IMG/VR virus record: IMGVR_UViG_3300045988_054550
Span: 1-64,000 of that record
DNA length: 64,000 nt
Source of the DNA: a virus
Reading direction: 5' to 3' (one strand)
The translations under genes and the position numbers were made by a program. The notes under the pieces were generated by a model, which ran no database searches, had not been told where the DNA came from, and saw only the letters and a list, made by a program, of their open reading frames with translations. Shown one piece after another: positions 27,251 to 51,274 of this stretch (position 1 is its first letter; the number at the start of each line of letters is the position of its first letter).

Positions 27251-27991
27251 ATGAAGAAAAAGATTATTGCATTAGTTTTATGTGGTGTTATGGCTCTGAG
27301 TGTCCCTGTATACGCCAAAGGCGGAAGCGTTTCGCTCAGTTCTGATGAATTGCAAGTGCCAAAAACAGAGCAGAAAAAAGATAAAAAAGAGAGTAAAAAG
27401 AAAAAGAACCAAGATATTACTGTAACGCAGAGCGGTTGGACTATTCAGACAAGTGATTATGATAACGACCGATACGTTGCATATGGAGCTAAGGTTACTA
27501 ACTCTAGTTCTAAAAAATATGGATATGTAACTTTAAATATTGTCGTAAAAGATGCTAACGGTAAAATATTAAAGAGCACTGATGATACATTTTCATCTAT
27601 TGTTCCGGGAGATACTGTATTTTCGGCAGATAAAATTTACATTGGTCAATATGACCCAGCGTCTGTCGAGTTTTCTGTTTCATATGAAGACTCAGACTTT
27701 TTAGAGTCCGTTTCTGGCGACTCTGGAACGGATGCTTTTTCATTGTCAAACTTATCCGAAATGACAGACGAATACAGTTACACCACAATTACCGGTGAGA
27801 TTGAAAGTGAAGCCCCTGATAGCTGCACTTCCGCTTGCGTGACTGTTATTCTTAAACAAGGTGATGATATTGTCGGCGGTTTTTATGGCTATGTTGACGT
27901 GACAAGTGGCGAAACAACAGCTTTTGAAATCTCTGATTATGATCTGCCAGAACATGATAACGTAGAAATTTCAGCACGTCCAACATTTTAA
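27251..27991 (+). CDS. secreted protein with signal peptide and two beta-rich repeats (246 aa)
   Basis: MKKKIIALVLCGVMALSVPVYA signal-like N-terminus and a K-rich linker. Confidence 0.6.
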   Translation: MKKKIIALVLCGVMALSVPVYAKGGSVSLSSDELQVPKTEQKKDKKESKKKKNQDITVTQSGWTIQTSDYDNDRYVAYGAKVTNSSSKKYGYVTLNIVVKDANGKILKSTDDTFSSIVPGDTVFSADKIYIGQYDPASVEFSVSYEDSDFLESVSGDSGTDAFSLSNLSEMTDEYSYTTITGEIESEAPDSCTSACVTVILKQGDDIVGGFYGYVDVTSGETTAFEISDYDLPEHDNVEISARPTF

Positions 27992-28253
27992 AAAGCAATT
28001 AACAAGAGGGGCAACCGCCCCTCTTTCTCTTTGCCTGTCGTTCTTACAGGCAGTCTCTCTATCCACACATCCTTTCGGACACAGAAACCATATTTTGCGA
28101 ATTTTGTCAAACTTTAATGCTTTACACTAACAATTTTAAGTGCTACACTTTGTTTGTGGGACAATAATACCACAAACAGGAAGAAAAATGTGTGTACTGT
28201 CAAAATCATTGCGTATTTTGACAAAATTGAGACTACGAAAGGAGGGCGCGCAT

Positions 28254-28955
28254 ATGAGAATAGCCATATGTGACGATAATCAGCTTGAAGTTGACTTGTT
28301 TAAAGAGCACATATCGGGATTCTTGCGGCGCAAAGGAGATTACCGGTATGAAATTAGCGAATATTCGGCGGGCTATCCGCTTGTTGAAGATGTGAAAGAG
28401 GGTAAATGGTACGATGTAATTGTGCTGGATATGATTCTGGAAAATGAGAACGGTTTGGAGATTGCGAACCGGCTCCGGAATATTGGATATGATGGAAAGA
28501 TTATATTCTGGACAGCCGACGATTCTCATTTGCAAGAAGCATTTGACGTCGGTGCTATGCAGTATGTGGTCAAGGGCAAGGAATACGGCAGAATATACCG
28601 AGCTATTGACGAGATTCTGTCACAGATGAAAGATGAAACATTGACGTTCAAATTCCGCGGGCAGATTAACCGGCTCAAATATGATGAAATCGAGTACATT
28701 GAAAGCCAGGCAAGGGTCTGTCATATTTTTGCGACAGATAACCGATGTTTCGTGACCACTTGCAAGCTGAACGATCTGGAAGAAAAGCTGTCTGATAAGC
28801 GATTTTTGCGTTGCCATCAGAGCTATCTGGCGAACATGGATCACATTCAGTCGGCAGGTGATAATTTTGTCATGGATTCCGGGGATGTTGTTCAGATAAG
28901 AAAAAATGGGGCAAGGGAAATCAAAGAAAAATATGAAAATTACATAATGAGATAA
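28254..28955 (+). CDS. LytR/AlgR-family response regulator (REC + LytTR)
   Basis: REC signature ICDD..VIVLDMIL..IIFWTA..YVVKG. The C-terminal region is LytTR-like (..RCHQSYLAN..). AGGAGGG RBS. No kinase gene in the window. Confidence 0.8.
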   Translation: MRIAICDDNQLEVDLFKEHISGFLRRKGDYRYEISEYSAGYPLVEDVKEGKWYDVIVLDMILENENGLEIANRLRNIGYDGKIIFWTADDSHLQEAFDVGAMQYVVKGKEYGRIYRAIDEILSQMKDETLTFKFRGQINRLKYDEIEYIESQARVCHIFATDNRCFVTTCKLNDLEEKLSDKRFLRCHQSYLANMDHIQSAGDNFVMDSGDVVQIRKNGAREIKEKYENYIMR

Positions 28956-29071: not shown

Positions 29072-30502
29072 TCATTTGGCCATTTCTGTGATTCTTTTAA
29101 ATGTTCCTTTTGGGATAAATTCAAAAACAAATCCCTCATCATTCGGATAAGGGATTCTGACAAAGTACCATCTTAATCCTTTACTGTCAGTTTCCACATA
29201 CTTCATAACTTCCACAACTGCACCTTTTTTCAGCTTTGGAAACAGTTTAGATGGGCTGTTTTTGTTTGATTCCACATAACATTTTGTGTCTTTTTTAATC
29301 TGTGCAATGTAGGCTCTGGTGTTCTGTTTTTTGACTGTATCTGAGTCTGAAGCTGGTGTTGTATTCTTAACTAAACTGTAGTTTGGAGTGCAGAATTTTG
29401 TTCCCGGGAGGTTGCTGTTGTAGTAACTTTTTTGGCACACACCACCGCCATTTGCAATGATTGTAGAGCCACTAGAAGTATTTCCTTCGACTGTCCAGAA
29501 CCGATCTCCTGACACTTTTATTACGATTCCAGTGTGTGTAAATGTGCCATTTCGATAAAAAATAACAATATCTCCAACTTTTGGATTGCTGTTCAGAGTA
29601 AACAAATCCGCCATTGTCGGACAATAAACGTATGGCCAATGTTTTAAGAGCTTCTTTGCTGTATCTAAACCAAATGCTTTCATCATGCACCACGAAACAA
29701 ACGCTGCGCACCACGGCTGTCCCTGATAATCCGGCTTAATATCTCGCCAGTATTTTGTATAATTATTTTCTCCGGCGTTTGCTGTCTTGCTGTCAAGCTG
29801 GCTATTGCTTGCTTTTTCAAGATATCCAACTTCATTCTTTGCGATCTGGATTAATTTGTCAATTGCGTTCATGCTCTTATCCTCACTTTCTGGAAAATAT
29901 GTCTTTAATGCGTTATAAACAAATCTCTGCCGGCTCTTATATGCCCCGACCTGGTTCCCTGTATCGATCTGGCAGGCTGCATAGAGATTATCGAGTGTAT
30001 ATGGTTTCTGAGTCTTTGCCAGAATCCTCGTTACTGCTCCCTGTCCGCCTTGGTGCCTAAAGTTCACGCACATAGCTTGCCCTCTAGCGTCCGTAACGCC
30101 CTTTTTAAGGGCTTCTTCTGCGTAGATAGCTAATTGTTCGTCCATGAGGTTATCTTGGCATTTAACGCCGGTTTTGGACGATATGAGCCGTACGATTAAA
30201 TTTGCAAACTGGCTGTTTCTGGAAATGTTAAAACAAGACCAGTCTGCCTCCTGCACCTGCTCCCATAATCCGATACTGTCCAGTCTGTCCCATTGTGCCG
30301 TATCTGCATCATGAATCCGTTTCAAAAGCGTTTGTGCTTCGGTTGCGTACCACTGTCCGGCACCGATTGTAATTGCGTGTTCTTCAAAAGAATTAGTGTA
30401 GGCTTCTGTGAAGTCCGAATAATCCTGCTGTCCGTAAACCTGTCCGCCAGTTTCGACTGCATAAATAATCTTTCTGAGAACTGCTTTCTGCTCGTTTGTC
30501 AT
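29072..30502 (-). CDS. endolysin: N-terminal glycosidase-like domain + CHAP + C-terminal SH3-like domain
   Basis: CHAP signature QPWCAAFVSWC ... HTGIV. The N-terminal domain assignment is uncertain. Confidence 0.75.
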   Translation of the reverse strand: MTNEQKAVLRKIIYAVETGGQVYGQQDYSDFTEAYTNSFEEHAITIGAGQWYATEAQTLLKRIHDADTAQWDRLDSIGLWEQVQEADWSCFNISRNSQFANLIVRLISSKTGVKCQDNLMDEQLAIYAEEALKKGVTDARGQAMCVNFRHQGGQGAVTRILAKTQKPYTLDNLYAACQIDTGNQVGAYKSRQRFVYNALKTYFPESEDKSMNAIDKLIQIAKNEVGYLEKASNSQLDSKTANAGENNYTKYWRDIKPDYQGQPWCAAFVSWCMMKAFGLDTAKKLLKHWPYVYCPTMADLFTLNSNPKVGDIVIFYRNGTFTHTGIVIKVSGDRFWTVEGNTSSGSTIIANGGGVCQKSYYNSNLPGTKFCTPNYSLVKNTTPASDSDTVKKQNTRAYIAQIKKDTKCYVESNKNSPSKLFPKLKKGAVVEVMKYVETDSKGLRWYFVRIPYPNDEGFVFEFIPKGTFKRITEMAK

Positions 30503-42081: not shown

Positions 42082-42294
42082 CTATTCATCTGTGCCTGTT
42101 TTCAGTTCTGGAAGCCCTGCTACAGATGTAAGCAAGGATAAAACGCCGGAAAGAACGGACGCGGATACGACCATCTTCCAGTCAACGCTTCCAAGAACTG
42201 TCGCGGTTCCGATTGTTGCAACAGCTGTCTGAGCAATTGTCTTAACAGCTCTGATTCCCGCAGCTTTCAGCCAATGTAATTTATCTTTACTCAT
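42082..42294 (-). CDS. holin-like membrane protein (70 aa, LL-H-type pattern)
   Basis: ..AGIRAVKTIAQTAVATIG..VDWKMVVSASVLSGVLSLLTSVAGLPE.. Two hydrophobic helices and a charged C-terminus. Confidence 0.55.
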   Translation of the reverse strand: MSKDKLHWLKAAGIRAVKTIAQTAVATIGTATVLGSVDWKMVVSASVLSGVLSLLTSVAGLPELKTGTDE

Positions 42295-43935: not shown

Positions 43936-45006
43936 CTATTTAATCGGAATAATTACAGTCCCATATAAAAATGGATATGGACAGTATATATCAATATTGC
44001 CATCTACCTTAATTTGAATATTTCCAATATTAGTATTACCGTCTTTAACTAAGGCGCTTCTGTATGCACCAATAGAATCCTTCAATATATATATATCCGG
44101 TAGTTGGGCAATGTTTGTTTGAGCAATTTGCGAATCTTTAGCATTTCCATTGAATTTGCAGTACAATAGTTTGCCAACAGCAAAAGTAGCTAAAACACCA
44201 TATTCACCGCAGGTGATATATCTGATATTATCAATTTTTACTTTACTATTTAATTCATTAATCGCTCCCAGAATTGTTTTGTCGTTCGTCTGAAGCTTTG
44301 CAAACACTTTATCAGCGATTTTATTAAGGACAAAGTCTGACAGCTTGCTCAGCACACCCCTTTTCATTCCTGTACCATCATTAATCAGAAACGCATCAGA
44401 ATCAGCTAATGTACCTCTGTCGGTGTAATTCGCAGATTCCAGATTTTCCGTTTTGGTTTTCAAGGATGTTATGATCTCGGAATCCTCTCTCAAGTATGGT
44501 GCCATATCAATAGCCGGTCCAAGAGTGTCCCATATTTCTCCCGTCCATGCTACATTCATGCCTGCCTCTCCATAAATAGATTTTTCAGATATATTATACA
44601 TCCATCCAATCTTAGGAGATAACGGGAGCTGTGAAATATTTGATACGGAACCTTTGTATAAAAGTGGTGTTGCAATTCCCTCTACGTCTTCTGATACCTG
44701 CTGGATTTTTCCGTTAAGAACACCATATACTTCAATCGGTGTTACTTTGCTTTGTTCGATCTTATCAGGTTTATACCACAATTTCTTACTCTCATCAAAT
44801 TTGTAATACTCTCCTGTATCGGTCATAAAACATGATGAATTGTTAGCAACGTACAGAGGGAGTTTGTCTGAATCTTTCGCAAGTCCTTCATAATGACGTT
44901 TACCACCATCTTTGAAAACTCGGTGAATACTGCCAAGTTGCGGAAGCTGTTCGCCTGGCTTGTATTCTACATCATCAATGATTACTGTATTTTGTGCAAC
45001 TGCCAT
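43936..45006 (-). CDS. fibre-like protein 2 (fused N-domain + shared motif + short C-terminal domain)
   Basis: The N-terminal 80 aa are homologous to ORF 47042-47284. The central motif YGEAGMNVAW.G..WD..G..IDM is shared with 45295-47028. Confidence 0.6.
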   Translation of the reverse strand: MAVAQNTVIIDDVEYKPGEQLPQLGSIHRVFKDGGKRHYEGLAKDSDKLPLYVANNSSCFMTDTGEYYKFDESKKLWYKPDKIEQSKVTPIEVYGVLNGKIQQVSEDVEGIATPLLYKGSVSNISQLPLSPKIGWMYNISEKSIYGEAGMNVAWTGEIWDTLGPAIDMAPYLREDSEIITSLKTKTENLESANYTDRGTLADSDAFLINDGTGMKRGVLSKLSDFVLNKIADKVFAKLQTNDKTILGAINELNSKVKIDNIRYITCGEYGVLATFAVGKLLYCKFNGNAKDSQIAQTNIAQLPDIYILKDSIGAYRSALVKDGNTNIGNIQIKVDGNIDIYCPYPFLYGTVIIPIK

Positions 45007-45127
45007 AATAGTTCTCCTTTCACTTATCAATTCAAAATATAATCTTTTTCTTCCTTTGTAAGAATTGAGAGATTTTCTATCTTTTCTTTTGTAATTTTGC
45101 GAATTGCTTAACTAAAGCACAATTTAG

Positions 45128-45292
45128 TTAATTAGTTTCCACTTTCGGTTCTTCTTCCTTATTAACATCCATCAGCTCATTATACTGTTCCTCAGTAATT
45201 CTGCCCGTTGCGAAGAAAATATCAATCTTATTTTTCAAATCATCTGTCAGACCGTTTTTCTCTTTAAGTTTTAGTAATGTTCTATATAACAT
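45128..45292 (-). CDS. XkdX-like small protein (54 aa)
   Basis: Hand-translated ..FFATGRITEEQYNELM..; typical position after a fibre gene. Confidence 0.45.
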   Translation of the reverse strand: MLYRTLLKLKEKNGLTDDLKNKIDIFFATGRITEEQYNELMDVNKEEEPKVETN

Positions 45293-45294
45293 AA

Positions 45295-47028
45295 TCATAC
45301 CTCCAATTCTGTTAATGCTACTGCGTATTCACTGTTGACGTAGGCTTCTGCCGCCTGCAAATCAGTATCCTGAGTACGTGCATCCATATCATAGATATAA
45401 TTTCTCGTATCGCCTATCTGCTGTTTTACATAGTTCCAACCGTTCTCCATTGAAATCGGATAATTGAATACTGTATATCCGTCAAGCTGTTCGGAATTGA
45501 TAAATATATTTGTGACTGGATAATAGGTTGCAAGTGATTTGAATGCGGCAATTTCTTCGGGTGCGAGGTCGATTTCTGTTGGATTGGCTAATTGGTATAT
45601 AATTCTTGTTCCATACACTTCATTTTTAAACGCACTCAAATCGTCTGTATTAGAATGAAATGCGATTGGTTTGAGATTATCATGCGTTGATAGCCAACAT
45701 CTATAAATATATTTGTTATCTGTCCTATCTACTAAAGCTACGCCTTGATATTTAGTAGTTTGCAGTCTTGCTATATCATCGCTGTTATCACTTATTACAA
45801 ATACATCATCCATTCCATAAACAAAAAATGTATTAGTAGTAATTCTCGTAATTTGATTCATGTCAGAGATAACACATTCTCCAACCATCCTCACCAATTT
45901 CCCTCTCTCCACATCCACATAATCCGCAATATACTGCTGACCATCGATTGTGACGTTACCACCTGAGTTTACAGGGATTGCATTCAATGTGTATGGGAGG
46001 GCGACGGTCTTAAATTGTGTTCCATCTTCATTTGATAATTTTACAGTCGGATTCACCACGCTCTTAATCTCCTGCGGATAGTCAGGATTTGGGCTTGGAA
46101 TACCGCCGGTGTAGGGTTCGTAGGATGTAGCTTCAAGATTTTTAGTTAGCATAATCTCATTCGTTTCATTTGATGTAGTATTTGAATATCTGATAGTAAG
46201 ACATACTTCTGTTTCTTCATCAAGCGTAAATGTCGTATCAGTTTTTCCTTCTGAAATCGTAGCGATAGCTGAATAATCTCTTTTGGATAATCCTATTTTC
46301 AACGCAGAAATATTTTTCAATAGCATTTTATAGGTTCCTGGCGCAAGAGTTATATATCTATTAGTTGAAGTATAGCCACCTGCGCCTGAAATTGTGCCAC
46401 TTACTGAATATCCAAATTTTGTACTGGTTATTCTTGCGCCATTATATGTTTGAGAATAATCTTCATAATCCATATAATAAATATTATCCCCACTATACTG
46501 TTTCTGCTCAGACTTCCCATACAGCATCATATCCATAATTTTGCCGCTATCAGAATCGGCAAGATGGGTTTCGCCTTGTGAACTTGCATAGAATTTGGCG
46601 ATTTTGGTGGATATATCTTCCTTTAGTGAACCAGTTTCCGTTTTCAGTGAAGCAATGTCTGTCTTGTTCTGCTCAATCTGCTGTGCCTGTTCTGTCGTGG
46701 CTCCAGGCTTGACTGGATTCTTTTCAAAATATTCCGTAACTAATCTTTGCATTACCGTCTCTGCTTCTTCTTTTGTGAGATACAGTGACATATCAATTGG
46801 AGCGCCCATAGTGTCCCAAACTACGCCGTTCCATGCCACATTCATTCCTGCTTCGCCGTAGACCGACTTAGACTCGATATTGTACATATCGCCAATGTCT
46901 GGATTTAATGGAAGCAAATCAGCAGTCGCAACTGTACCTCTGTATCTTACAGGGCTATTTAATTTTGCTTCCATATCGGAAATCTGGCGTTTTAATATTG
47001 CATATACTTTCTTTGCTGTTAATGCCAT
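45295..47028 (-). CDS. fibre-like protein 1 (577 aa)
   Basis: Shared motif RYRGTVATADLLPLNPDIGDMYNIESKSVYGEAGMNVAWNGVVWDTMGAPIDMS; AAGGAG RBS. Confidence 0.6.
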   Translation of the reverse strand: MALTAKKVYAILKRQISDMEAKLNSPVRYRGTVATADLLPLNPDIGDMYNIESKSVYGEAGMNVAWNGVVWDTMGAPIDMSLYLTKEEAETVMQRLVTEYFEKNPVKPGATTEQAQQIEQNKTDIASLKTETGSLKEDISTKIAKFYASSQGETHLADSDSGKIMDMMLYGKSEQKQYSGDNIYYMDYEDYSQTYNGARITSTKFGYSVSGTISGAGGYTSTNRYITLAPGTYKMLLKNISALKIGLSKRDYSAIATISEGKTDTTFTLDEETEVCLTIRYSNTTSNETNEIMLTKNLEATSYEPYTGGIPSPNPDYPQEIKSVVNPTVKLSNEDGTQFKTVALPYTLNAIPVNSGGNVTIDGQQYIADYVDVERGKLVRMVGECVISDMNQITRITTNTFFVYGMDDVFVISDNSDDIARLQTTKYQGVALVDRTDNKYIYRCWLSTHDNLKPIAFHSNTDDLSAFKNEVYGTRIIYQLANPTEIDLAPEEIAAFKSLATYYPVTNIFINSEQLDGYTVFNYPISMENGWNYVKQQIGDTRNYIYDMDARTQDTDLQAAEAYVNSEYAVALTELEV

Positions 47029-47041
47029 ATGTGCTTCTCCT

Positions 47042-47284
47042 TTACAGTTTGTACCATGTATCGGTAGGTTTGTGATATTCGTATAATTCAGATGTATCAA
47101 GACACAACGCCGAAGAACCACTCTCTACATAATGTGGGAGCTTTGATACATCTTTTGAAAGCCCCTCGTAATCACGAACCATACCTTTTGCATCTGTACA
47201 TACCCAACTACCTAAATCCGGCAATTCATCACCGGGATTGTACTGAATGCCATCAAAAATAATTGTGTTTTCTGCTTTTGCCAT
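47042..47284 (-). CDS. stand-alone fibre N-domain protein (80 aa)
   Basis: Clear alignment by eye to residues 9-88 of ORF 43936-45030. Confidence 0.6.
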   Translation of the reverse strand: MAKAENTIIFDGIQYNPGDELPDLGSWVCTDAKGMVRDYEGLSKDVSKLPHYVESGSSALCLDTSELYEYHKPTDTWYKL

Positions 47285-47671
47285 CTATGCAATCATCCTT
47301 TCTGCCCCAATGGGAGCTACATATGTGAACTGGTTTCCTAAGATATCTCTGGCCGTGCCAATAACAAACTGTCCATAGTCTGCCAGAATATTACATACAA
47401 ATTCCTCCGCGTCCACCCAATACCGTTTCTTAACCATACGATGAAGTTCTGGTAATAGACCATAACTGAACATCACGCAATGCCCTAACTCATGAATAAA
47501 TACACGGTTCAGAAGTTCTCCATATAGGCTATTTGCGATTGAAATAACGTGGGTGGAATAATCCGATACTCCAAGCGTTCTATTGCCTGTACGGTCAATT
47601 AACACGCTGTCATGCGGAGATACAAACTGCACTCTCCATAGGTCACCGTTCATGTAAAATTGTCTTAGCAT
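47285..47671 (-). CDS. HExxH zinc-metallopeptidase-like protein (128 aa)
   Basis: FIHELGHCV motif. Confidence 0.5.
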   Translation of the reverse strand: MLRQFYMNGDLWRVQFVSPHDSVLIDRTGNRTLGVSDYSTHVISIANSLYGELLNRVFIHELGHCVMFSYGLLPELHRMVKKRYWVDAEEFVCNILADYGQFVIGTARDILGNQFTYVAPIGAERMIA

Positions 47672-47746
47672 GGCTTATCACCATCCTTTTCTCAACTAAA
47701 AAGCCCCTGCTACATTCCTGTAACAAGGGCAAAATTCATATTATAT

Positions 47747-48373
47747 TCAGTTCATCTGCTGTATGAAACGTGTTAAGTCAGTCTTCATCTGCTGTCTGAT
47801 TGATGCGTCTGCATCATCCCACATTTCTTTCATATTGCGGATGATATCTTCTGTATACTCTTTCATGGAATCATCCATTTTTCTCTTAGACTCAGCGTCT
47901 TTGGAATCATGGTAATGTCTGCGATTCTCGCTGTATCTGTCGTAGGTTTCACCATATCTGGACTGCTTATGGTTCATTCCGTCCATTCTCATGCCACTAC
48001 GGTCTGGATGATATCCCATGCGGTACATGTTCTGATCAAACTCTGGATTGATCGGATATTCGCTTATCCAGTCATCATCCTGCATATGAAGATATGGCAT
48101 ATATCCCATTCGGCTTCCTCTGCCTTTTGGTGCAAATCTGCCGTTTGCGTAACGATATCTGTCATATCCCATGCGTCCAAGATACTTCTCTTCCTGCTCG
48201 CATTCGTCCATAGCTTCTACGATTCTGTAATCCTTATCTGCACAAATCGCACACTTTACAGCTTCCATGCAGTCTTTCAAATCGTCCCAGTCTTGAGCGC
48301 TGAGATTGTCAAATCCATGTGCTTTGGCTTTTTCCATAGCCCATTTTCCCATTTCCATTGCAACTTTATGCAT
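47747..48373 (-). CDS. M/Y/R/D-rich low-complexity protein (208 aa)
   Basis: Repeated RMGY and DRY motifs. Confidence 0.5.
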   Translation of the reverse strand: MHKVAMEMGKWAMEKAKAHGFDNLSAQDWDDLKDCMEAVKCAICADKDYRIVEAMDECEQEEKYLGRMGYDRYRYANGRFAPKGRGSRMGYMPYLHMQDDDWISEYPINPEFDQNMYRMGYHPDRSGMRMDGMNHKQSRYGETYDRYSENRRHYHDSKDAESKRKMDDSMKEYTEDIIRNMKEMWDDADASIRQQMKTDLTRFIQQMN

Positions 48374-48798
48374 TACATTGCCCCCTTTCTGGCAGCCTGT
48401 GTAACAGGTGTGTCTGTCGTTGGGGCTGTGCCATTAATTGCTGTTAAATTGTTACTCGGACTACAAGCCGGATTTCCTAACATCTTGAATACTCCGCCGG
48501 TTACACTTGTAGCTACTCTGGTTGCGTACTTTGTTCTGGTTCTTATTCCGCAAGCCGTAACCTGTGCGCAGCAACGATTCTCTAGCGGATACAAAGTTGT
48601 TCCTGTTCCTATCTGAATCATTACCGGGGCAGTAATTGTAGTGGCTTCCGGTATGCTTTGCGCAACAACAATACAATATTTCTCTCCATTGTTGTAACTG
48701 CCTGCCGGAAGTGTGATTACAAGATTGCCTCCTGTAAACGCAACGGCTTGGCTGATTACAAGATGGTTGCAGAGCTTACAAACACTTTTACAACTCAT
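48373..48798 (-). CDS. Cys-bearing beta-rich protein (141 aa)
   Basis: N-terminal MSCKSVCKLC, internal CC and C..C. Confidence 0.5.
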   Translation of the reverse strand: MSCKSVCKLCNHLVISQAVAFTGGNLVITLPAGSYNNGEKYCIVVAQSIPEATTITAPVMIQIGTGTTLYPLENRCCAQVTACGIRTRTKYATRVATSVTGGVFKMLGNPACSPSNNLTAINGTAPTTDTPVTQAARKGAM

Positions 48799-48877
48799 AT
48801 TTTATACCTCTCAATCAAAATAAGAGGTGAGCCATAACCCACCTCTTAGAATTAGTCAACCTCTAAGGGTGAGTTAC

Positions 48878-49687
48878 TTAGCAGCATCCACTGTTGCATC
48901 CGCATCCGCCGTAATAGGTATTCGGATTCGGAACAACATATGCCGGAATAGCCGCCGGATTAATTGCATTGATTAACTGCTGAGTCTGTGAAGCCATAGC
49001 AGTTGTAAGCAATGCGGACTGACGATCCTGAGATGCAGCACGTTTCAGATCAGTATTTTCTGCCTGTAATGTTGCAATCTTATCCTGAGTCAGGAAGTCA
49101 AGGATTGCTCTTGTGTTGCTGTTCTGGTTTTCCAGAAGATCTCTGGTGTTGTTGTTCATTGTGTTCTGGAGAGCACAAGTGTTGGTAGCAAGGTTGTAGT
49201 TAATACCCTGTATAGCTTCTCTTGTTTCACAGCAACAGCTTGCTAACTGAGACTGTAAGGCATTGGTATTCTGCATACCTGCTACTGTATCAGCATTGAT
49301 AGCCTGCTGAACGCCATTGAAGCCCTGAAGCATTCCAACGTTCATGCCATTAAAGCCACTCTGCATGGTATTGTTAAGAGAATATGTGCTGTCACAGATA
49401 CCCTGCTGAATACCTCTGATACCATTCTGAATATCATTAAGGGCGAATTCCTCATTAATATCCGCACGTGTGGCCCATCCTTGGAATCCAGCACCATTTG
49501 CACCGTTTCCACCATTGCCGCCAAAGCCGCCGCCCCAGCCGCCAAAACCTCCCCAGCCGAAGATTGCGAAGATCAGGACAAGCCAGATAAGTGAAAAGCC
49601 ATCACCGCCCCACATATCATTTGCGCGACTATTAGAGCCTGTAGCAGCTGCAATGTCGCTAAGGCTGTAATTTGAACCATTCATCAT
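48878..49687 (-). CDS. Gly-rich, single-pass membrane protein with Cys-rich C-terminus (269 aa)
   Basis: LIWLVLIFAIFGWGGFGGWGGGFGGNGGNGANG; N/Q-rich repeats; C-terminal YYGGCGCNSGCC. Confidence 0.5.
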   Translation of the reverse strand: MMNGSNYSLSDIAAATGSNSRANDMWGGDGFSLIWLVLIFAIFGWGGFGGWGGGFGGNGGNGANGAGFQGWATRADINEEFALNDIQNGIRGIQQGICDSTYSLNNTMQSGFNGMNVGMLQGFNGVQQAINADTVAGMQNTNALQSQLASCCCETREAIQGINYNLATNTCALQNTMNNNTRDLLENQNSNTRAILDFLTQDKIATLQAENTDLKRAASQDRQSALLTTAMASQTQQLINAINPAAIPAYVVPNPNTYYGGCGCNSGCC

Positions 49688-49783
49688 GTTTTTAGTCTCC
49701 TTAAATTTTATTTACAATAGGAGACATCCGCGGCTGTCGTCCCGAATTGTAGCGATTTTTAATCACCCAATTGTGGGGAAGTG

Positions 49784-50029
49784 TTATAATCCAAGGAATT
49801 TCTGGATAATTCCATCTGGTGATAAGTGCTTTTCATTAAATACATTTTGCTGTATTTGATGTAACTGGTCTGTATCACCTTTTTTGTATAAATCCAACGC
49901 ATTCTTCAATGTTGGATTATTTCCTGCAAATTTACTCATATCGTTCATCATGTTGTCAACACTTCCGAACCTCTGAGAAATCATTCTTTCAAGTTGCTTT
50001 TTCATCATGGCGTTTGGGTTGAAATTCAT
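49784..50029 (-). CDS. hypothetical protein (81 aa)
   Basis: ORF track. Confidence 0.45.
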   Translation of the reverse strand: MNFNPNAMMKKQLERMISQRFGSVDNMMNDMSKFAGNNPTLKNALDLYKKGDTDQLHQIQQNVFNEKHLSPDGIIQKFLGL

Positions 50030-50523
50030 CTCTGCCTACCTCCATTCTGCTTAGGTTCCGATGTCCCCGACATCTGCGTCGGAAACATATTCTTTATTTC
50101 AGAAATCTCCGAACAAACATCATTCCGAAGTTGATTAAACATTGCTTCAATGTCAATCTGCTTTTCATCTTGCTTAGATTGCTGTTCGTCTGGATTTACG
50201 AGTCGGTAAACAAAAATCCTGCTTCTTCCATCGGATTGAAGCTGTTTTCTGTAAATTTCAGTTCCGTCTGTTTTTGGATAGTAAACAGGATTACCGGACA
50301 TATCCACATCTTTAGCCTTTACAGTATCAATCCCATCCACCATCTGTCCTTGAAGCATAGGTGATTGTGGAACCGGCTGTAACTGTTGCATCTGTATTTG
50401 ACCATAAGGCATTGCCTGCTGATAATTATTTTGCAGTTGAGCCAGCCTGTCCTGATACGGCTGTATCTGTCCGTATGGATTGTTTATTATTGGTTGTTGC
50501 GGATAATACGGATAACCTGCCAT
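50026..50523 (-). CDS. Q/P/Y-rich protein (165 aa)
   Basis: Start trimmed to the ATG after GGAGGA; MAGYPYYPQQPIINNPYGQIQPYQ.. Confidence 0.5.
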   Translation of the reverse strand: MAGYPYYPQQPIINNPYGQIQPYQDRLAQLQNNYQQAMPYGQIQMQQLQPVPQSPMLQGQMVDGIDTVKAKDVDMSGNPVYYPKTDGTEIYRKQLQSDGRSRIFVYRLVNPDEQQSKQDEKQIDIEAMFNQLRNDVCSEISEIKNMFPTQMSGTSEPKQNGGRQR

Positions 50524-50678
50524 AATCTGTTCCTCCTGTCCGGGATTCAAGAATCATATCCATATCATCTATAGAACGATGCTTTTCCCATATACCCTCG
50601 TAAGGGTTTCTTAACATAATCATTGTGTTTTCTCCTATGATTATATTATATAGGAAGGAACTCTGTTTTTGAACGTCA

Positions 50679-50933
50679 CTATTTCGCCACGTTTTCGCCA
50701 CAATACAAAGAAAAGCCCCGACAGTACATCGGGGCAACTTTAGAAATTTTCTTCTTTATTCTTTTATTAATTCGGTCTATGGTTCTTGGACTATACCCCA
50801 TAAGTTCAGATGCTTCCCATAGTGTCTTTTCGCCATAGACCCGTAATCGAAACAGTTTTTCTTCTCTGGAATCGAAGCCTGCTTCTTTTAAATAAAATTT
50901 TCTTTCATCTTCTGAAAAGTCTGTATAATTCAT
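50679..50933 (-). CDS. small sigma-70 region-4-like HTH protein (84 aa)
   Basis: ..EKTLWEASELMGYSPRTIDRINKRIKKKI..; GGGAGGA RBS. Confidence 0.55.
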   Translation of the reverse strand: MNYTDFSEDERKFYLKEAGFDSREEKLFRLRVYGEKTLWEASELMGYSPRTIDRINKRIKKKISKVAPMYCRGFSLYCGENVAK

Positions 50934-50962: not shown

Positions 50963-51274
50963 TCAAACTGGAAGAATACCGCTTAACATAAAACCGATAA
51001 CTGCGCTGACAATAGATGTAATAACACATACAATGATTGTATCGTAACGCTTTCCCGGGACTGCCATGAGAGTCTTTATATTGTTATTCATCTCATCCAC
51101 AGTTGACTTGATATGATTCAAGTCGTTTTCACTTAATGCCGTTTTTCTTTCCAGTTCCCCGATACGCTCATAAAACTCCTTATGTCGGTCGGATTGTCTT
51201 TCTTGCATCTTTCGAAGATTATCTTCTAATTCTGCTATGCGGTGTTCATTAAAACATTCGTGTTCACATCCCAT
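50963..51274 (-). CDS. XhlA-like protein (coiled coil + C-terminal TM, 103 aa)
   Basis: The architecture and length match the recalled XhlA family. Confidence 0.5.
   Translation of the reverse strand: MGCEHECFNEHRIAELEDNLRKMQERQSDRHKEFYERIGELERKTALSENDLNHIKSTVDEMNNNIKTLMAVPGKRYDTIIVCVITSIVSAVIGFMLSGILPV

What the first reader, a model, noticed from the sequence alone, without database searches (positions are those of the whole stretch)
47747..50523. Cluster of low-complexity Q/P/Y-, Gly-, Cys- and Met/Tyr/Arg-rich proteins resembling surface-assembly or coat material
Five consecutive genes encode:
- a Q/P/Y-rich protein (MAGYPYYPQQPIINNPYGQIQPYQ..);
- an 81-aa protein;
- a 269-aa protein with one TM helix running into GWGGFGGWGGGFGGNGGNG, long N/Q-rich repeats with CCC and C..C, and a terminal YYGGCGCNSGCC;
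- a 141-aa beta-rich protein starting MSCKSVCKLC with internal CC;
- a 208-aa protein full of RMGY and DRY repeats.

I do not recognise these as standard siphovirus parts. The composition (Tyr/Gly/Cys-rich, cross-linkable) is reminiscent of spore coat, exosporium or appendage proteins, or of self-assembling extracellular material. The Cys-N-terminal small protein is loosely reminiscent of endospore-appendage subunits. That comparison is speculative. A phage-borne module that modifies the host spore or cell surface, or decorates the capsid via disulfide or dityrosine cross-links, would be new.
Basis: inference. Interest (0 to 1): 0.7.

Follow-up and report, generated by a model that had tools for sequence, protein, structure and literature searches.

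The report
Mobile gut-phage anchored-fibre gene cassette
The five odd-looking genes are real and strongly conserved, and they form the core of a mobile, dispensable cassette of unknown function carried by thousands of gut phages of clostridia, Bacteroides and even methanogenic archaea, so it has nothing to do with spores and most likely builds a hydrophobically anchored stalk-and-knob assembly.

Summary
Observation confirmed. Five minus-strand genes (p1 to p5, 50523..47747) have the stated compositions and evolve under purifying selection as strong as the capsid gene (dN/dS 0.07-0.10).

They are not isolated. They form the core of a conserved cassette: (XhlA) > small sigma-r4-type HTH > p1 > p2 > p3 > p4 > p5 or a DUF7841 protein > (small HExxH peptidase). 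The cassette occurs at different genome positions in phages and prophages of Oscillospiraceae, Lachnospiraceae, C. perfringens and Butyrivibrio. A rearranged form occurs in crAss-like and other Bacteroides phages. p3 alone occurs in Methanomassiliicoccales viruses.

Near-identical phages that lack the cassette exist, so it is accessory.

p3 has a TM-like helix, a Gly/aromatic segment, a helical stalk of about 170 residues with a near-invariant CCC motif, and a Cys-rich tail. p4 is a confident beta-sandwich that resembles the distal domains of phage fibres. No member matches Ena, BclA, spanin, defence or any other characterised family.

The spore-coat and exosporium idea is rejected. My best reading, at modest confidence, is a self-contained, moron-like unit that builds a membrane-anchored stalk-and-knob complex. 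The main rival is an accessory virion fibre. The function is untested, and the cassette is a good experimental target.

The parts
50963..51274 (-). XhlA-like protein (103 aa): N-terminal coiled coil and C-terminal TM helix. It often lies upstream of the cassette, usually as the first gene of a lysis block.
   Evidence: phrog_937 'hemolysin' E 1.1e-12. Found upstream of the cassette in 20 of 71 Firmicutes-type loci. In Anaerotruncus it is followed by a holin and a GH25 lysin.
50679..50933 (-). Small HTH protein that looks like sigma-70 region 4 only. It is 84 aa in relatives. The longest ORF in the window starts at 51029.
   Evidence: Sigma70_r4 E 0.003. TIGR02937 E 3.4e-7, below its cut-off. 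An HTH gene precedes p1 in 48 of 71 Firmicutes-type loci and precedes p3 in 43 of 82 Bacteroides-type loci. hhalign between the two HTH sets gives P 3e-4.
50645..50673 (-). Sigma-70-type promoter-like site (TTCAAA, 17 nt spacer, TATAAT) upstream of p1.
   Evidence: Consensus scan. The same hexamers and spacing are kept in a second, otherwise diverged spacer variant among relatives. This is a consensus match only. The scan as a whole is not enriched over shuffles.
50026..50523 (-). p1 (165 aa): Q/P/Y-rich disordered-looking N-terminus, a small conserved domain, and a C-terminal helix.
   Evidence: Strong SD before the ATG. phrog_21718, unknown function, E 2e-20. dN/dS 0.070. Found in 59 of 71 Firmicutes-type loci, directly upstream of p2/p3.
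49784..50029 (-). p2 (81 aa): N/M/Q-rich helical protein. Its start overlaps the p1 stop (ATGA).
   Evidence: (dN/dS 0.079). A weak, suggestive match of its C-terminal motif to the N-terminal extension of Bacteroides-type p3: hhalign P 0.0067 over 21 columns.
48878..49687 (-). p3 (269 aa): acidic N-tail, TM-like hydrophobic helix (residues 30-44), Gly/aromatic-rich segment, amphipathic helical stalk of about 170 residues with a CCC motif, and a Cys-rich C-terminal tail.
   Evidence: phrog_16490 E 8.7e-66. At least 7974 homologue clusters. Across 123 unique family members: median hydrophobic core 2.11, CCC present in 118, two or more Cys in the last 15 residues in 117. Hydrophobic periodicity 3.65 residues, reached by 0 of 300 shuffles. 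No PDB or Pfam relative.
48799..48877 (-). p3-p4 spacer with overlapping alternative hairpins. One is terminator-like (48848..48821). Another pairs with the p4 Shine-Dalgarno sequence.
   Evidence: The spacer is conserved among 35 distinct variants. No Rfam family matches. Function not tested.
48373..48798 (-). p4 (141 aa): flexible N-terminal arm with three Cys, an eight-strand beta-sandwich (residues 12-107) with a CC motif, and a T/P/A-rich tail.
   Evidence: AlphaFold2 with a 66-sequence alignment: pLDDT 88.9. Foldseek against BFVD finds family members plus C-terminal domains of phage tail-fibre and collagen-repeat proteins (E 1e-4 to 1e-2, TM 0.44-0.53). Nothing significant in the PDB. 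It directly follows p3 in 67 of 71 genome loci. dN/dS 0.088.
47747..48373 (-). p5 (208 aa): helical ends flanking an R/M/G/Y/D-rich centre with invariant RxGY and DRY motifs. Its start overlaps the p4 stop (TAATG).
   Evidence: dN/dS 0.069. 1790 homologue clusters, none with a Pfam domain. The same slot after p4 is taken in 32 other loci by proteins with an R/D/Y-rich region plus DUF7841.
47703..47730 (-). Intrinsic terminator (12-bp stem plus T-run) that closes the p1-p5 unit.
   Evidence: The stem is kept through compensatory changes in diverged relatives, always with a T-run.
47285..47671 (-). Small HExxH (HELGH) metallopeptidase-like protein (128 aa), a frequent companion of the cassette.
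   Evidence: phrog_1233 E 2e-10 and a peptidase PHROG E 1.6e-4. A small HExxH gene lies within 4.5 kb in 9 of 65 Firmicutes-type loci, against a 1.3% background. A PolyVal-type HExxH gene is present in 79 of 82 Bacteroides-type loci.
43936..47284 (-). Rest of the accessory island in this phage lineage: an 80-aa gene, a variable fibre-like gene (578 aa here) and a 364-aa gene. All are lost together with the cassette in natural deletion variants.
   Evidence: The equivalent fibre-like gene in relative L095 ends in an SGNH esterase domain.

Best explanation
**What it is.** The five genes are the core of an autonomous accessory cassette that moves between gut-phage genomes. The cassette is moron-like: it appears to have its own promoter and ends in a conserved terminator, and it is usually preceded by a small HTH gene.

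**How I think it is built (inferred).**
- p3 is the scaffold. Its N-terminal hydrophobic helix and Gly/Trp/Phe-rich juxtamembrane segment anchor it in a lipid bilayer. I take this to be the host cytoplasmic membrane, the one envelope layer shared by clostridia, Bacteroides and methanogens.
- The amphipathic helical region of about 170 residues forms a parallel, probably trimeric, stalk. The near-invariant CCC ring and the Cys-rich C-terminal tail lock the stalk through disulfide or metal bonds.
- p4 is a beta-sandwich with the fold of phage-fibre distal domains and a flexible N-terminal arm with three Cys. It forms the head of the assembly or a cross-linked cap.
- p5, or in other phages an R/D/Y-rich DUF7841 protein, is made in step with p4 and binds it.
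- p1 and p2 are also made in step. They supply disordered adaptor or chaperone functions. p2 possibly shields the p3 anchor.
- The HTH protein, and where present the HExxH peptidase, regulate or process the set.

**What I think it does (inferred).** The result is a stalk-and-knob complex on the membrane of the infected or lysogenic cell. It serves an optional envelope-level function. The most plausible candidates are exclusion of other phages, or control or protection of progeny around lysis. It is not an essential virion part and not a spore-related structure.

**Shown:**
- gene reality
- cassette conservation
- host range
- mobility
- dispensability
- the p3 sequence anatomy
- the p4 fold
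- gene coupling
- the terminator

**Inferred:**
- oligomeric state
- membrane location
- topology
- partner contacts
- the biological role
For: **1. Real, constrained genes.** dN/dS is 0.07-0.10, equal to the capsid gene.

**2. A conserved order.** (XhlA) > HTH > p1 > p2 > p3 > p4 > DUF7841 protein or p5 > (pep) in 71 Firmicutes-type loci. HTH > p3 > (p4) > p1B > DUF7841 > HExxH in 82 Bacteroides-type loci.

**3. A position independent of virion genes.**
- Between the capsid and neck genes here.
- After holin and endolysin at the prophage end in Anaerotruncus and in bajarodcaudo virus 5.
- Next to early and replication genes in C. perfringens CPD1 and in B. uniformis phage C3_41T2LP.
- Between the lysis and head genes in crAss-like cr116_1.

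**4. Dispensable.**
- Two of 63 near-identical phages (94% nucleotide identity; contigs of 70.6 and 67.7 kb against 75-80 kb) lack it.
- Two further in-frame deletion variants exist.

**5. The TM-like core of p3 is its most conserved physical feature** across bacterial and archaeal viruses.

**6. Gene coupling.** p4/p5 and p1/p2 overlap at stop and start. A crAss-like protein is annotated as containing DUF7841 and also contains a p4-like fold (rank 20).

**7. Transcription signals.** A promoter-like site lies before p1. A terminator conserved through covariation follows p5.

**8. Lysis context.** The cassette is often adjacent to XhlA, holin and lysin genes.

**9. Distribution.** Restricted to phages. 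It is essentially absent from plasmids.
Against: - No experiment or homologue places any of these proteins in a membrane.
- p3 has few flanking Lys or Arg (0.68 before the core, 1.17 after), so its topology is undetermined.
- p1, p2, p4 and p5 have no export signals. An outward-facing stalk could therefore not meet them before lysis. An inward-facing stalk would keep the Cys motifs in a reducing cytoplasm.
- The p4 fold, the vicinal-Cys motifs and the position inside structural operons here and in crAss-like phages fit a virion fibre just as well.
- A terminator-like hairpin between p3 and p4 argues against simple 1:1 production.
- No PADLOC defence family matches.
- A seven-gene exclusion device would be unprecedented.
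- The promoter call is only a consensus match.
Confidence: 0.38

Rival explanations
1. Accessory virion fibre or decoration (head fibre, collar whisker or side fibre). p3 trimers form the shaft. The hydrophobic and Gly-rich N-terminus plugs into the particle, as the N-terminal anchor of reovirus sigma-1 does. p4 is the distal knob. The other proteins are adaptors or assembly chaperones. The role would be adhesion to something common in the gut, such as mucus or other glycans, rather than host-specific receptor binding.
For: - The p4 fold resembles the C-terminal domains of many tail-fibre and collagen-repeat phage proteins. The best PDB hit is a phage baseplate/tail-fibre chain, at E 0.2.
- p3 is a long amphipathic helix of periodicity 3.65 with vicinal Cys. 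By general knowledge this is typical of covalently knotted trimeric fibres.
- The cassette sits between the capsid and neck genes here, next to another variable fibre-like gene, and next to the scaffold and capsid genes in crAss-like cr116_1.
- It is dispensable, as head fibres and whiskers are.
- The C-terminus of the Bacteroides-type p1 analogue hits phrog_473 'virion structural protein', E 1.4e-8.
- The distribution follows the gut habitat rather than the host envelope type.
Against: - The p3 N-terminal segment is as hydrophobic as a true TM helix in all 123 unique sequences.
- The cassette moves between phages with unrelated capsid, neck and tail proteins, so it would need a universal docking site.
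- In many prophages it lies after the lysis genes or beside replication genes.
- It carries its own HTH gene, a terminator and often a peptidase.
- None of p3, p4 or the crAss-type analogues matches any chain of a solved virion structure by sequence.
Confidence: 0.3
2. Matrix or condensate former. The Q/P/Y-, N/M/Q-, G/W/F- and R/Y/D-rich segments drive self-association, either cytoplasmic condensates or an extracellular cross-linked material after lysis. This would organise assembly or embed progeny. p3 and p4 would act as nucleating or cross-linking elements.
For: - Four of the five proteins combine folded parts with strongly biased segments whose motifs are nevertheless conserved.
- Mixed-charge R/D/Y tracts recur in the equivalent genes of Bacteroides phages.
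- Many conserved Cys are available for cross-linking.
Against: - Purely compositional reasoning.
- The Q/P/Y N-terminus of p1 is absent from the Bacteroides-type analogue.
- No precedent in tailed phages.
- Nothing could be tested here.
Confidence: 0.1
3. One reading: a phage-borne module that modifies the host spore coat or exosporium, or makes Ena-like endospore appendages.
For: - Superficial likeness of the p4 N-terminus (MSCKSVCKLC) to that of Ena2A (MSCECSGSALTCC, sequence from bioRxiv 10.1101/2025.02.11.637640).
- p4 is a beta-sandwich with a flexible Cys arm.
- Many hosts are spore-forming clostridia.
Against: - The cassette is present in phages of non-sporulating Butyrivibrio. Its core (p3, occasionally p4, a DUF7841 protein, HTH and HExxH genes) is present in phages of Bacteroides, including crAss-like phages. 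p3 also occurs in archaeal viruses.
- No DUF3992 or DUF4183 match in 66 family members.
- The p4 profile scores 3.5 bits or less against Ena2A, F-ENA 1-4, ExsF and the BclA C-terminal domain, with hhalign P of 0.08 or higher.
- No Ena, BclA or C1q structure among the 50 best-ranked matches listed from the PDB fold search.
- Only one N-terminal Cys is conserved at 90% or more across the diverse family.
Confidence: 0.03
4. Lysis accessory of the spanin or antiholin type. p3 would act at the membrane with XhlA and the holin to complete or time lysis.
For: - An N-terminal TM plus helical domain resembles the i-spanin and class III holin layouts (general knowledge).
- The cassette follows XhlA, holin and endolysin in many prophages.
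Against: - It is present in monoderm and archaeal hosts, which have no outer membrane.
- p4 has no lipobox.
- crAss-like cr116_1 already encodes a candidate one-piece spanin plus a holin upstream.
- In the window the cassette lies about 17 kb from the endolysin, and the holin lies elsewhere.
Confidence: 0.08

Closest known systems
Stalk-and-knob virus fibres (phage tail and head fibres; reovirus sigma-1, from memory)
   Same: A long helical shaft and a small beta-sandwich distal domain. The p4 fold matches distal domains of predicted phage fibre proteins. It is dispensable, as phi29 head fibres and T4 whiskers are (memory).
   Different: - Shaft and knob are separate genes.
- The shaft begins with a true TM-like helix and a Gly/aromatic segment.
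- The set travels with an HTH gene, a peptidase and three biased-composition proteins.
- No sequence homology to any solved fibre.
Bacillus endospore appendage subunits (S-, L- and F-ENA)
   Same: A small beta-sandwich subunit with a flexible Cys-bearing N-terminal arm that could cross-link neighbours.
   Different: - No DUF3992 or DUF4183 signal, and no profile or fold match.
- Encoded by phages of non-spore-formers, Bacteroides and archaea.
Two-component spanins (Rz/Rz1)
   Same: An N-terminal membrane anchor, a helical periplasm-type domain with intermolecular Cys, a small Cys-containing partner encoded next to it, and frequent placement after holin and endolysin.
   Different: - The hosts are mostly monoderm or archaeal.
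- The partner has no lipoprotein signal.
- A separate spanin candidate exists in the crAss-like example.
- No homology.
Phage morons and superinfection-exclusion membrane proteins (HK97 gp15, lactococcal Sie2009, T5 Llp; from memory)
   Same: An optional unit with a promoter and terminator inside or after the late operon, encoding a membrane-anchored protein, found at prophage ends.
   Different: - Known examples are single small genes.
- This is a 7-8 gene cassette that is also carried by crAss-like phages, which encode no integrase that I saw.
- No homology, and no PADLOC match.
Coronavirus-type class I fusion spike (the source of the 'spike protein/glycoprotein' label on crAss-like homologues)
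   Same: An N/Q/A/I-rich helical repeat like HR1, an aromatic-rich membrane-proximal segment, a TM helix and a Cys-rich tail.
   Different: - Only weak compositional matches to HR1 (E 0.09-0.3).
- The order of elements is reversed, with the TM at the N-terminus.
- No HR2 and no fusion peptide.

Membership tests
S-ENA / L-ENA endospore appendage subunits (DUF3992) | Sequence membership in DUF3992 | tested here: not met
   No DUF3992 hit for p4 or for any of 66 diverse family members at E 0.05 or lower. The p4 profile against Ena2A scores 0.3 bits, with hhalign P 0.08 over 4 columns.
S-ENA / L-ENA endospore appendage subunits (DUF3992) | Jellyroll subunit with a flexible N-terminal Cys connector that disulfide-links neighbouring subunits | tested here: inconclusive
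   p4 has an eight-strand sandwich and a low-confidence N-terminal arm with C3, C7 and C10. Only C10 is conserved at 90% or more across the diverse family. No Ena structure is among the 50 best-ranked matches listed from the PDB fold search. Cross-linking cannot be tested with these tools.
S-ENA / L-ENA endospore appendage subunits (DUF3992) | Encoded by spore-forming Bacillota | tested here: not met
   p4 is encoded by phages and prophages, including phages of Butyrivibrio and Bacteroides.
F-ENA (DUF4183) | DUF4183 domain with an N-terminal hook | tested here: not met
   No DUF4183 hit. The p4 profile scores 3.5 bits or less against F-ENA, F-ENA-2a, F-ENA-3 and F-ENA-4.
BclA / C1q-TNF-like exosporium knob | Similarity to the BclA C-terminal domain or ExsF | tested here: not met
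   hmmsearch gives -0.9 and 1.3 bits, and hhalign gives P 0.2-0.26. No BclA or C1q chain appears among the 50 best-ranked Foldseek PDB matches listed.
Two-component spanin | i-spanin: N-terminal TMD plus a helical extracytoplasmic domain | tested here: inconclusive
   p3 has this layout, but its topology is unknown and there is no homology.
Two-component spanin | o-spanin: a small outer-membrane lipoprotein with a lipobox, and a diderm host | tested here: not met
   p4 starts MSCKSV with no signal peptide or lipobox. Most hosts are monoderm Clostridia, and p3 also occurs in archaeal viruses.
Phage tail/head fibre proteins | Fold of the distal domain | tested here: inconclusive
   BFVD hits to C-terminal parts of annotated tail-fibre and collagen-repeat proteins at E 1e-4 to 1e-2 and TM 0.44-0.53. 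The PDB gives only E 0.2.
Phage tail/head fibre proteins | Presence in the virion | not testable with these tools
   I found no proteomic data for any cassette-bearing cultured phage. No sequence match to chains of solved virions.
DUF7841 (PF25223) proteins | Match to the Pfam model | tested here: not met
   The window's p5 has no Pfam hit, and hhalign of p5 against DUF7841 gives P 0.028 over 12 columns. The gene in the same slot of the Anaerotruncus prophage matches at E 4e-21, as do the slot-equivalent genes in 112 loci. p5 is therefore a positional alternative, not a shown member.
Known or candidate anti-phage defence systems (PADLOC) | Match to any PADLOC model | tested here: not met
   No hit for p1 to p5, the HTH, the peptidase or the neighbouring genes at E 0.01 or lower.
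Class I viral fusion spike (label on crAss-like homologues) | Significant similarity to HR1/HR2-containing fusion proteins | tested here: not met
   The best matches to coronavirus HR1 constructs are E 0.09-0.3 for the crAss-type p3, and there are none for the window's p3.

The most novel reading that the evidence does not exclude
Tailed phages of strict gut anaerobes, across Bacillota, Bacteroidota and methanogenic archaea, share a horizontally mobile cassette. The cassette builds a membrane-anchored, Cys- or metal-locked trimeric spike on the infected or lysogenic cell, or on membrane fragments released at lysis. This would be a new class of phage-encoded envelope device, analogous in layout to the type II anchored stalk-and-head glycoproteins of animal viruses. 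Its chemistry would depend on reduced cysteines, which would explain why it is confined to anaerobes.
Probability: 0.15. Interest if true: 0.85.

Novelty: new variant of a known kind. Interest (0 to 1): 0.6.

Why it matters
- **Scale.** The cassette is among the more widespread unannotated gene sets of gut phages.
- **Annotation gap.** No family model assigns a function to any of p1 to p5. Pfam has no significant match for them. PHROGs lists p1 and p3 only under 'unknown function'.
- **Host range.** It crosses the deepest host boundaries known for a phage accessory module: monoderm bacteria, diderm bacteria and archaea. Whatever it does must address something common to gut anaerobes or to the gut itself.
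- **Tractability.** It is dispensable, natural deletion variants exist, and several cultured phages and one type-strain prophage carry it, so the question can be tested directly.
- **Payoff.** Finding its role would annotate thousands of 'hypothetical' proteins at once. It could reveal a new principle of phage-envelope or phage-habitat interaction.

Tried and rejected
- **Family scans.** Pfam, NCBIfam, PHROGs and PADLOC scans of all five proteins and their neighbours gave only unknown-function PHROGs for p1 and p3.
- **First p4 structure prediction.** An alignment of 35 close homologues gave a useless model, pLDDT 51. It was replaced by a 66-sequence diverse alignment, pLDDT 88.9.
- **PDB searches.** Sequence and profile searches with p3, p4 (two profiles) and the crAss-type p3, p4 and p1 analogues found nothing significant.
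- **Ena, F-ENA, ExsF and BclA comparison.** Negative.
- **p2 as a detached N-terminal domain of Bacteroides-type p3.** Only P 0.0067 over 21 columns, so I kept it as suggestive only. Homology between p1 and the Bacteroides 'p1B', and between p5 and DUF7841, was not supported.
- **p3-SGNH esterase fusions as 'head swapping'.** I first read P0170 and P0172 this way. They are deletions that join p3 to the C-terminus of the downstream fibre gene. I now count them mainly as evidence of dispensability.
- **p4 as the most conserved member.** The identity comparison is biased, because the loci were selected by p4 motifs. I do not use it.
- **My recollection that p1-like proteins occur in lactococcal or streptococcal phages.** Not borne out.
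- **Literature.** Searches for DUF7841, the crAss 'spike' label, C. perfringens phage proteomics and the B. uniformis phage found nothing useful.
- **Other.** A first dN/dS script timed out. Rfam found no RNA family in the region.

Full report
**1.

The five ORFs lie head to tail on the minus strand:
- p1: 50523..50026
- p2: 50029..49784
- p3: 49687..48878
- p4: 48798..48373
- p5: 48373..47747

A strong AGGAGGA precedes it. The compositions are as described:
- p1 is 17% Gln and 9% Pro.
- p3 is 13% Gly and 13% Asn.
- p5 is 12% Asp, 10% Met, 9% Arg and 7% Tyr.

These are functional genes. Against 33-69 relatives with dS of 0.6-1.4, dN/dS is 0.070, 0.079, 0.097, 0.088 and 0.069 for p1 to p5. The major capsid gene gives 0.066. 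The RxGY and DRY motifs of p5 are invariant columns in an alignment of homologues at 61-91% identity.

**2. Genomic context**

The window is a temperate siphovirus of about 75-80 kb from the human gut.
- Terminase, portal, a capsid_E-type major capsid protein, a tape-measure protein and an endolysin are all on the minus strand.
- A tyrosine integrase and an XRE repressor are present.
- The five genes sit between the capsid gene and the neck genes.
- Upstream are an XhlA-like membrane protein and an 84-aa protein that looks like sigma-70 region 4 alone.
- Downstream are a 128-aa HELGH metallopeptidase-like protein, an 80-aa gene, a 578-aa fibre-like gene and a 364-aa gene.

**3. The genes belong to a conserved, mobile cassette**

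tblastn and profile searches found p3 and p4 side by side in many gut phages. In 67 of 71 bacterial genome loci picked by p4 motifs, p3 directly precedes p4. The hosts named are Oscillospiraceae, Ruminococcaceae and Lachnospiraceae, including Anaerotruncus colihominis DSM 17241, Flintibacter muris and Acutalibacter.

I iterated HMMs over 154 loci. The Firmicutes-type order is:

(XhlA) > HTH > p1 > p2 > p3 > p4 > (DUF7841 protein or p5) > (HExxH peptidase)

The position of the cassette in the phage genome varies.
- **Anaerotruncus prophage:** it follows XhlA, holin and a GH25 lysin, and ends the prophage next to a tRNA and ruvCAB.
- **Bajarodcaudo virus 5:** it follows holin and lysin.
- **Butyrivibrio phage Ceridwen and C. 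perfringens phage CPD1:** it lies between the lysis genes and the early genes, and is interrupted by HNH endonuclease genes.

A rearranged version occurs in Bacteroides phages: HTH > p3 > (p4) > p1-like > R/D/Y-rich peptide > DUF7841 > PolyVal-type HExxH peptidase.
- In crAss-like cr116_1 it sits between the lysis genes and the scaffold and capsid genes.
- In the cultured B. uniformis phage C3_41T2LP it sits after RecT and the resolvase.
- It is present in 82 IMG/VR loci.
- The p4 HMM itself hits 5 of these loci.

p3 alone occurs in viruses assigned to Methanomassiliicoccales. The family is essentially absent from plasmids.

**4. The cassette is dispensable**

I picked 63 close relatives through the 108-aa head gene and required enough flanking sequence. 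Of these, 61 carry the cassette. Two do not.
- L268 joins the end of p1 to the first neck gene.
- L278 joins the HTH region to the first neck gene.
- Both lose about 6-7 kb.
- Their contigs are 70.6 and 67.7 kb, against the usual 75-80 kb, at about 94% nucleotide identity in the flanks.

Two more variants, P0170 and P0172, fuse p3 residues 1-171 in frame to the SGNH-esterase C-terminus of the downstream fibre-like gene. An essential virion component is therefore excluded.

**5. Anatomy of the parts**

*p3.*
- An acidic N-tail is followed by a hydrophobic core. The Kyte-Doolittle mean over 15 residues is 2.45 here, and the median over 123 unique homologues is 2.11.
- The next 30 residues are 37% Gly and contain Trp and Phe.
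- Next comes a region of about 170 residues whose hydrophobicity has a period of 3.65 residues. None of 300 shuffles reaches this power. This indicates a long amphipathic helix of the hendecad type.
- A CCC motif is present in 118 of 123 sequences.
- Two or more Cys occur in the last 15 residues in 117 of 123.
- No Pfam or PDB relative exists.
- The 'spike protein/glycoprotein' label on crAss homologues rests on weak HR1-like composition, E 0.09-0.3.

*p4.*
- With a diverse 66-sequence alignment, AlphaFold2 gives pLDDT 88.9. The model has a floppy N-terminal arm carrying C3, C7 and C10, an eight-strand sandwich (residues 12-107) and a disordered T/P/A tail.
- Foldseek finds nothing significant in the PDB. 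The best hit is a Pa193 baseplate/tail-fibre chain at E 0.2.
- In BFVD, beyond family members, it matches C-terminal parts of many predicted tail-fibre and collagen-repeat proteins (E 1e-4 to 1e-2, TM 0.44-0.53).
- It also matches a crAss-like protein annotated as DUF7841-containing, at rmsd 1.9 Å.

*Coupling and signals.*
- p1/p2 overlap as ATGA, and p4/p5 overlap as TAATG with an SD inside p4.
- The same overlaps occur in the Anaerotruncus, bajarodcaudo and CPD1 loci.
- TTCAAA-17-TATAAT lies upstream of p1 and survives in a second, diverged spacer type.
- The hairpin after p5 keeps its stem through compensatory changes and always carries a T-run.
- The p3-p4 spacer can form mutually exclusive hairpins. 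One is terminator-like and one covers the p4 SD.

**6. What it is not**

*Not spore-related.*
- The host range includes non-sporulating Butyrivibrio, Bacteroides and archaea.
- The p4 family has no DUF3992 or DUF4183 signal.
- It has no profile similarity to Ena2A, F-ENA 1-4, ExsF or the BclA C-terminal domain. I took those sequences from bioRxiv 10.1101/2025.02.11.637640.
- No such structure appears among the 50 best-ranked matches listed from the PDB fold search.

*Not a spanin pair.* Most hosts are monoderm, p4 has no lipobox, and cr116_1 has its own spanin-like gene.

*Not a listed defence system*.

*Not an RNA element*.

**7. Most likely mechanism**

Two readings survive.

- **(A) Membrane-anchored complex.** I rank this first at 0.38. 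The cassette is an autonomous moron-like unit. Its product is a membrane-anchored stalk (p3) with a beta-sandwich head or cap (p4 with p5 or a DUF7841 protein) and disordered adaptor or chaperone partners (p1, p2). It acts at the cytoplasmic membrane of the infected or lysogenic cell, most plausibly in exclusion of other phages or in a lysis-linked or progeny-protecting role.
  - The TM-like anchor is the most universal feature.
  - The cassette is independent of virion type.
  - It has its own HTH gene and terminator.
  - It tends to follow XhlA, holin and lysin.
- **(B) Optional virion fibre or decoration.** I rank this at 0.30.
  - The p4 fold resembles phage-fibre distal domains.
  - Vicinal-Cys motifs are typical of covalently knotted trimeric fibres.
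  - The cassette lies within structural operons here and in crAss-like phages.
  - It neighbours a variable fibre gene.
  - Its distribution follows the gut habitat.

Weaknesses of (A):
- The topology of p3 is undetermined.
- The partner proteins have no export signals.
- No precedent exists for a multi-gene exclusion device.

Weaknesses of (B):
- The anchor is strongly hydrophobic.
- The cassette would need a universal docking site across unrelated capsids and tails.

The confinement to phages of strict anaerobes, together with the many conserved cysteines, suggests oxygen-sensitive thiol or metal chemistry. This is inference only.

**8. Novelty and value**

- No family model assigns a function to any of p1 to p5. 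Pfam has no significant match. PHROGs lists p1 and p3 only as unknown function. DUF7841 is the one Pfam family that touches the cassette.
- I found no paper describing it.
- I file it as a new variant of a known kind, an anchored fibre or spike-like phage accessory. I put a 0.15 chance on it being a categorically new envelope device.
- It is widespread, strongly constrained, dispensable and present in cultured systems, so it is a tractable target.

Noticed in passing
window 27251-28955 (+): A LytTR-type response regulator (receiver plus LytTR domains, E about 1e-14) is preceded by a 246-aa ORF with no Pfam match. The pair lies on the opposite strand, between the endolysin and the anti-repressor. 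It may be a phage-borne signalling or quorum-type module.
   Followed up: partly
window 48799-48877 (-): The 80-nt p3-p4 spacer is highly conserved among relatives. It can fold into mutually exclusive hairpins: a long 5' stem, a terminator-like stem with a T-run, and a stem that sequesters the p4 Shine-Dalgarno sequence. It looks like an attenuator or translational switch. No Rfam family matches.
   Followed up: partly
window 42082-42294 (-): A 70-aa r1t/Phage_holin_5_2-like holin gene sits among the neck and tail-tube genes, about 12 kb from the endolysin (29072-30502). The XhlA-like gene sits separately at 50963-51274. The lysis functions of this phage are therefore scattered over three sites.
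   Followed up: partly
window 43936-47284 (-); L095 12776-14770; L268; L278: The region between the cassette and the neck genes is a variable accessory island. Its fibre-like gene differs between close relatives: 578 aa here, 523 aa in L003, and about 655 aa with a C-terminal SGNH esterase in L095. The whole island is missing in two natural variants.
   Followed up: partly
L001 9109-9903; L007 4630-5253; L077 4270-4890: HNH-type homing-endonuclease-like genes are inserted inside or at the edge of the cassette in three unrelated cultured phages: Ceridwen (after p4), CPD1 (between p2 and p3) and C3_41T2LP (before p3). This suggests the cassette is a recurrent target or vehicle for homing elements.
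   Followed up: no
L075 2103-2447 (crAss-like cr116_1): A 114-aa ORF just upstream of the annotated holin starts MLSAC and ends in a TM helix. It looks like a one-piece (u-)spanin candidate but is annotated as hypothetical.
   Followed up: no
window 50426-50737 (-) and 50715-50735: The HTH ORF in this window has a C-terminal extension relative to its 84-aa homologues, and the extension contains a terminator-like GC-rich hairpin. A short out-of-frame ORF with its own AGGAG (ATG at 50623) overlaps the p1 leader. Neither was examined further.
   Followed up: no
L076 3152-4186 and 6289-7479 (archaeal virus vir215): In the Methanomassiliicoccales virus, the p3 homologue lies near a DGR-type reverse transcriptase. 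It is followed by a 396-aa protein with Listeria/Bacteroides-type repeats and a C-terminal TM helix, that is, a surface-protein context.
   Followed up: no
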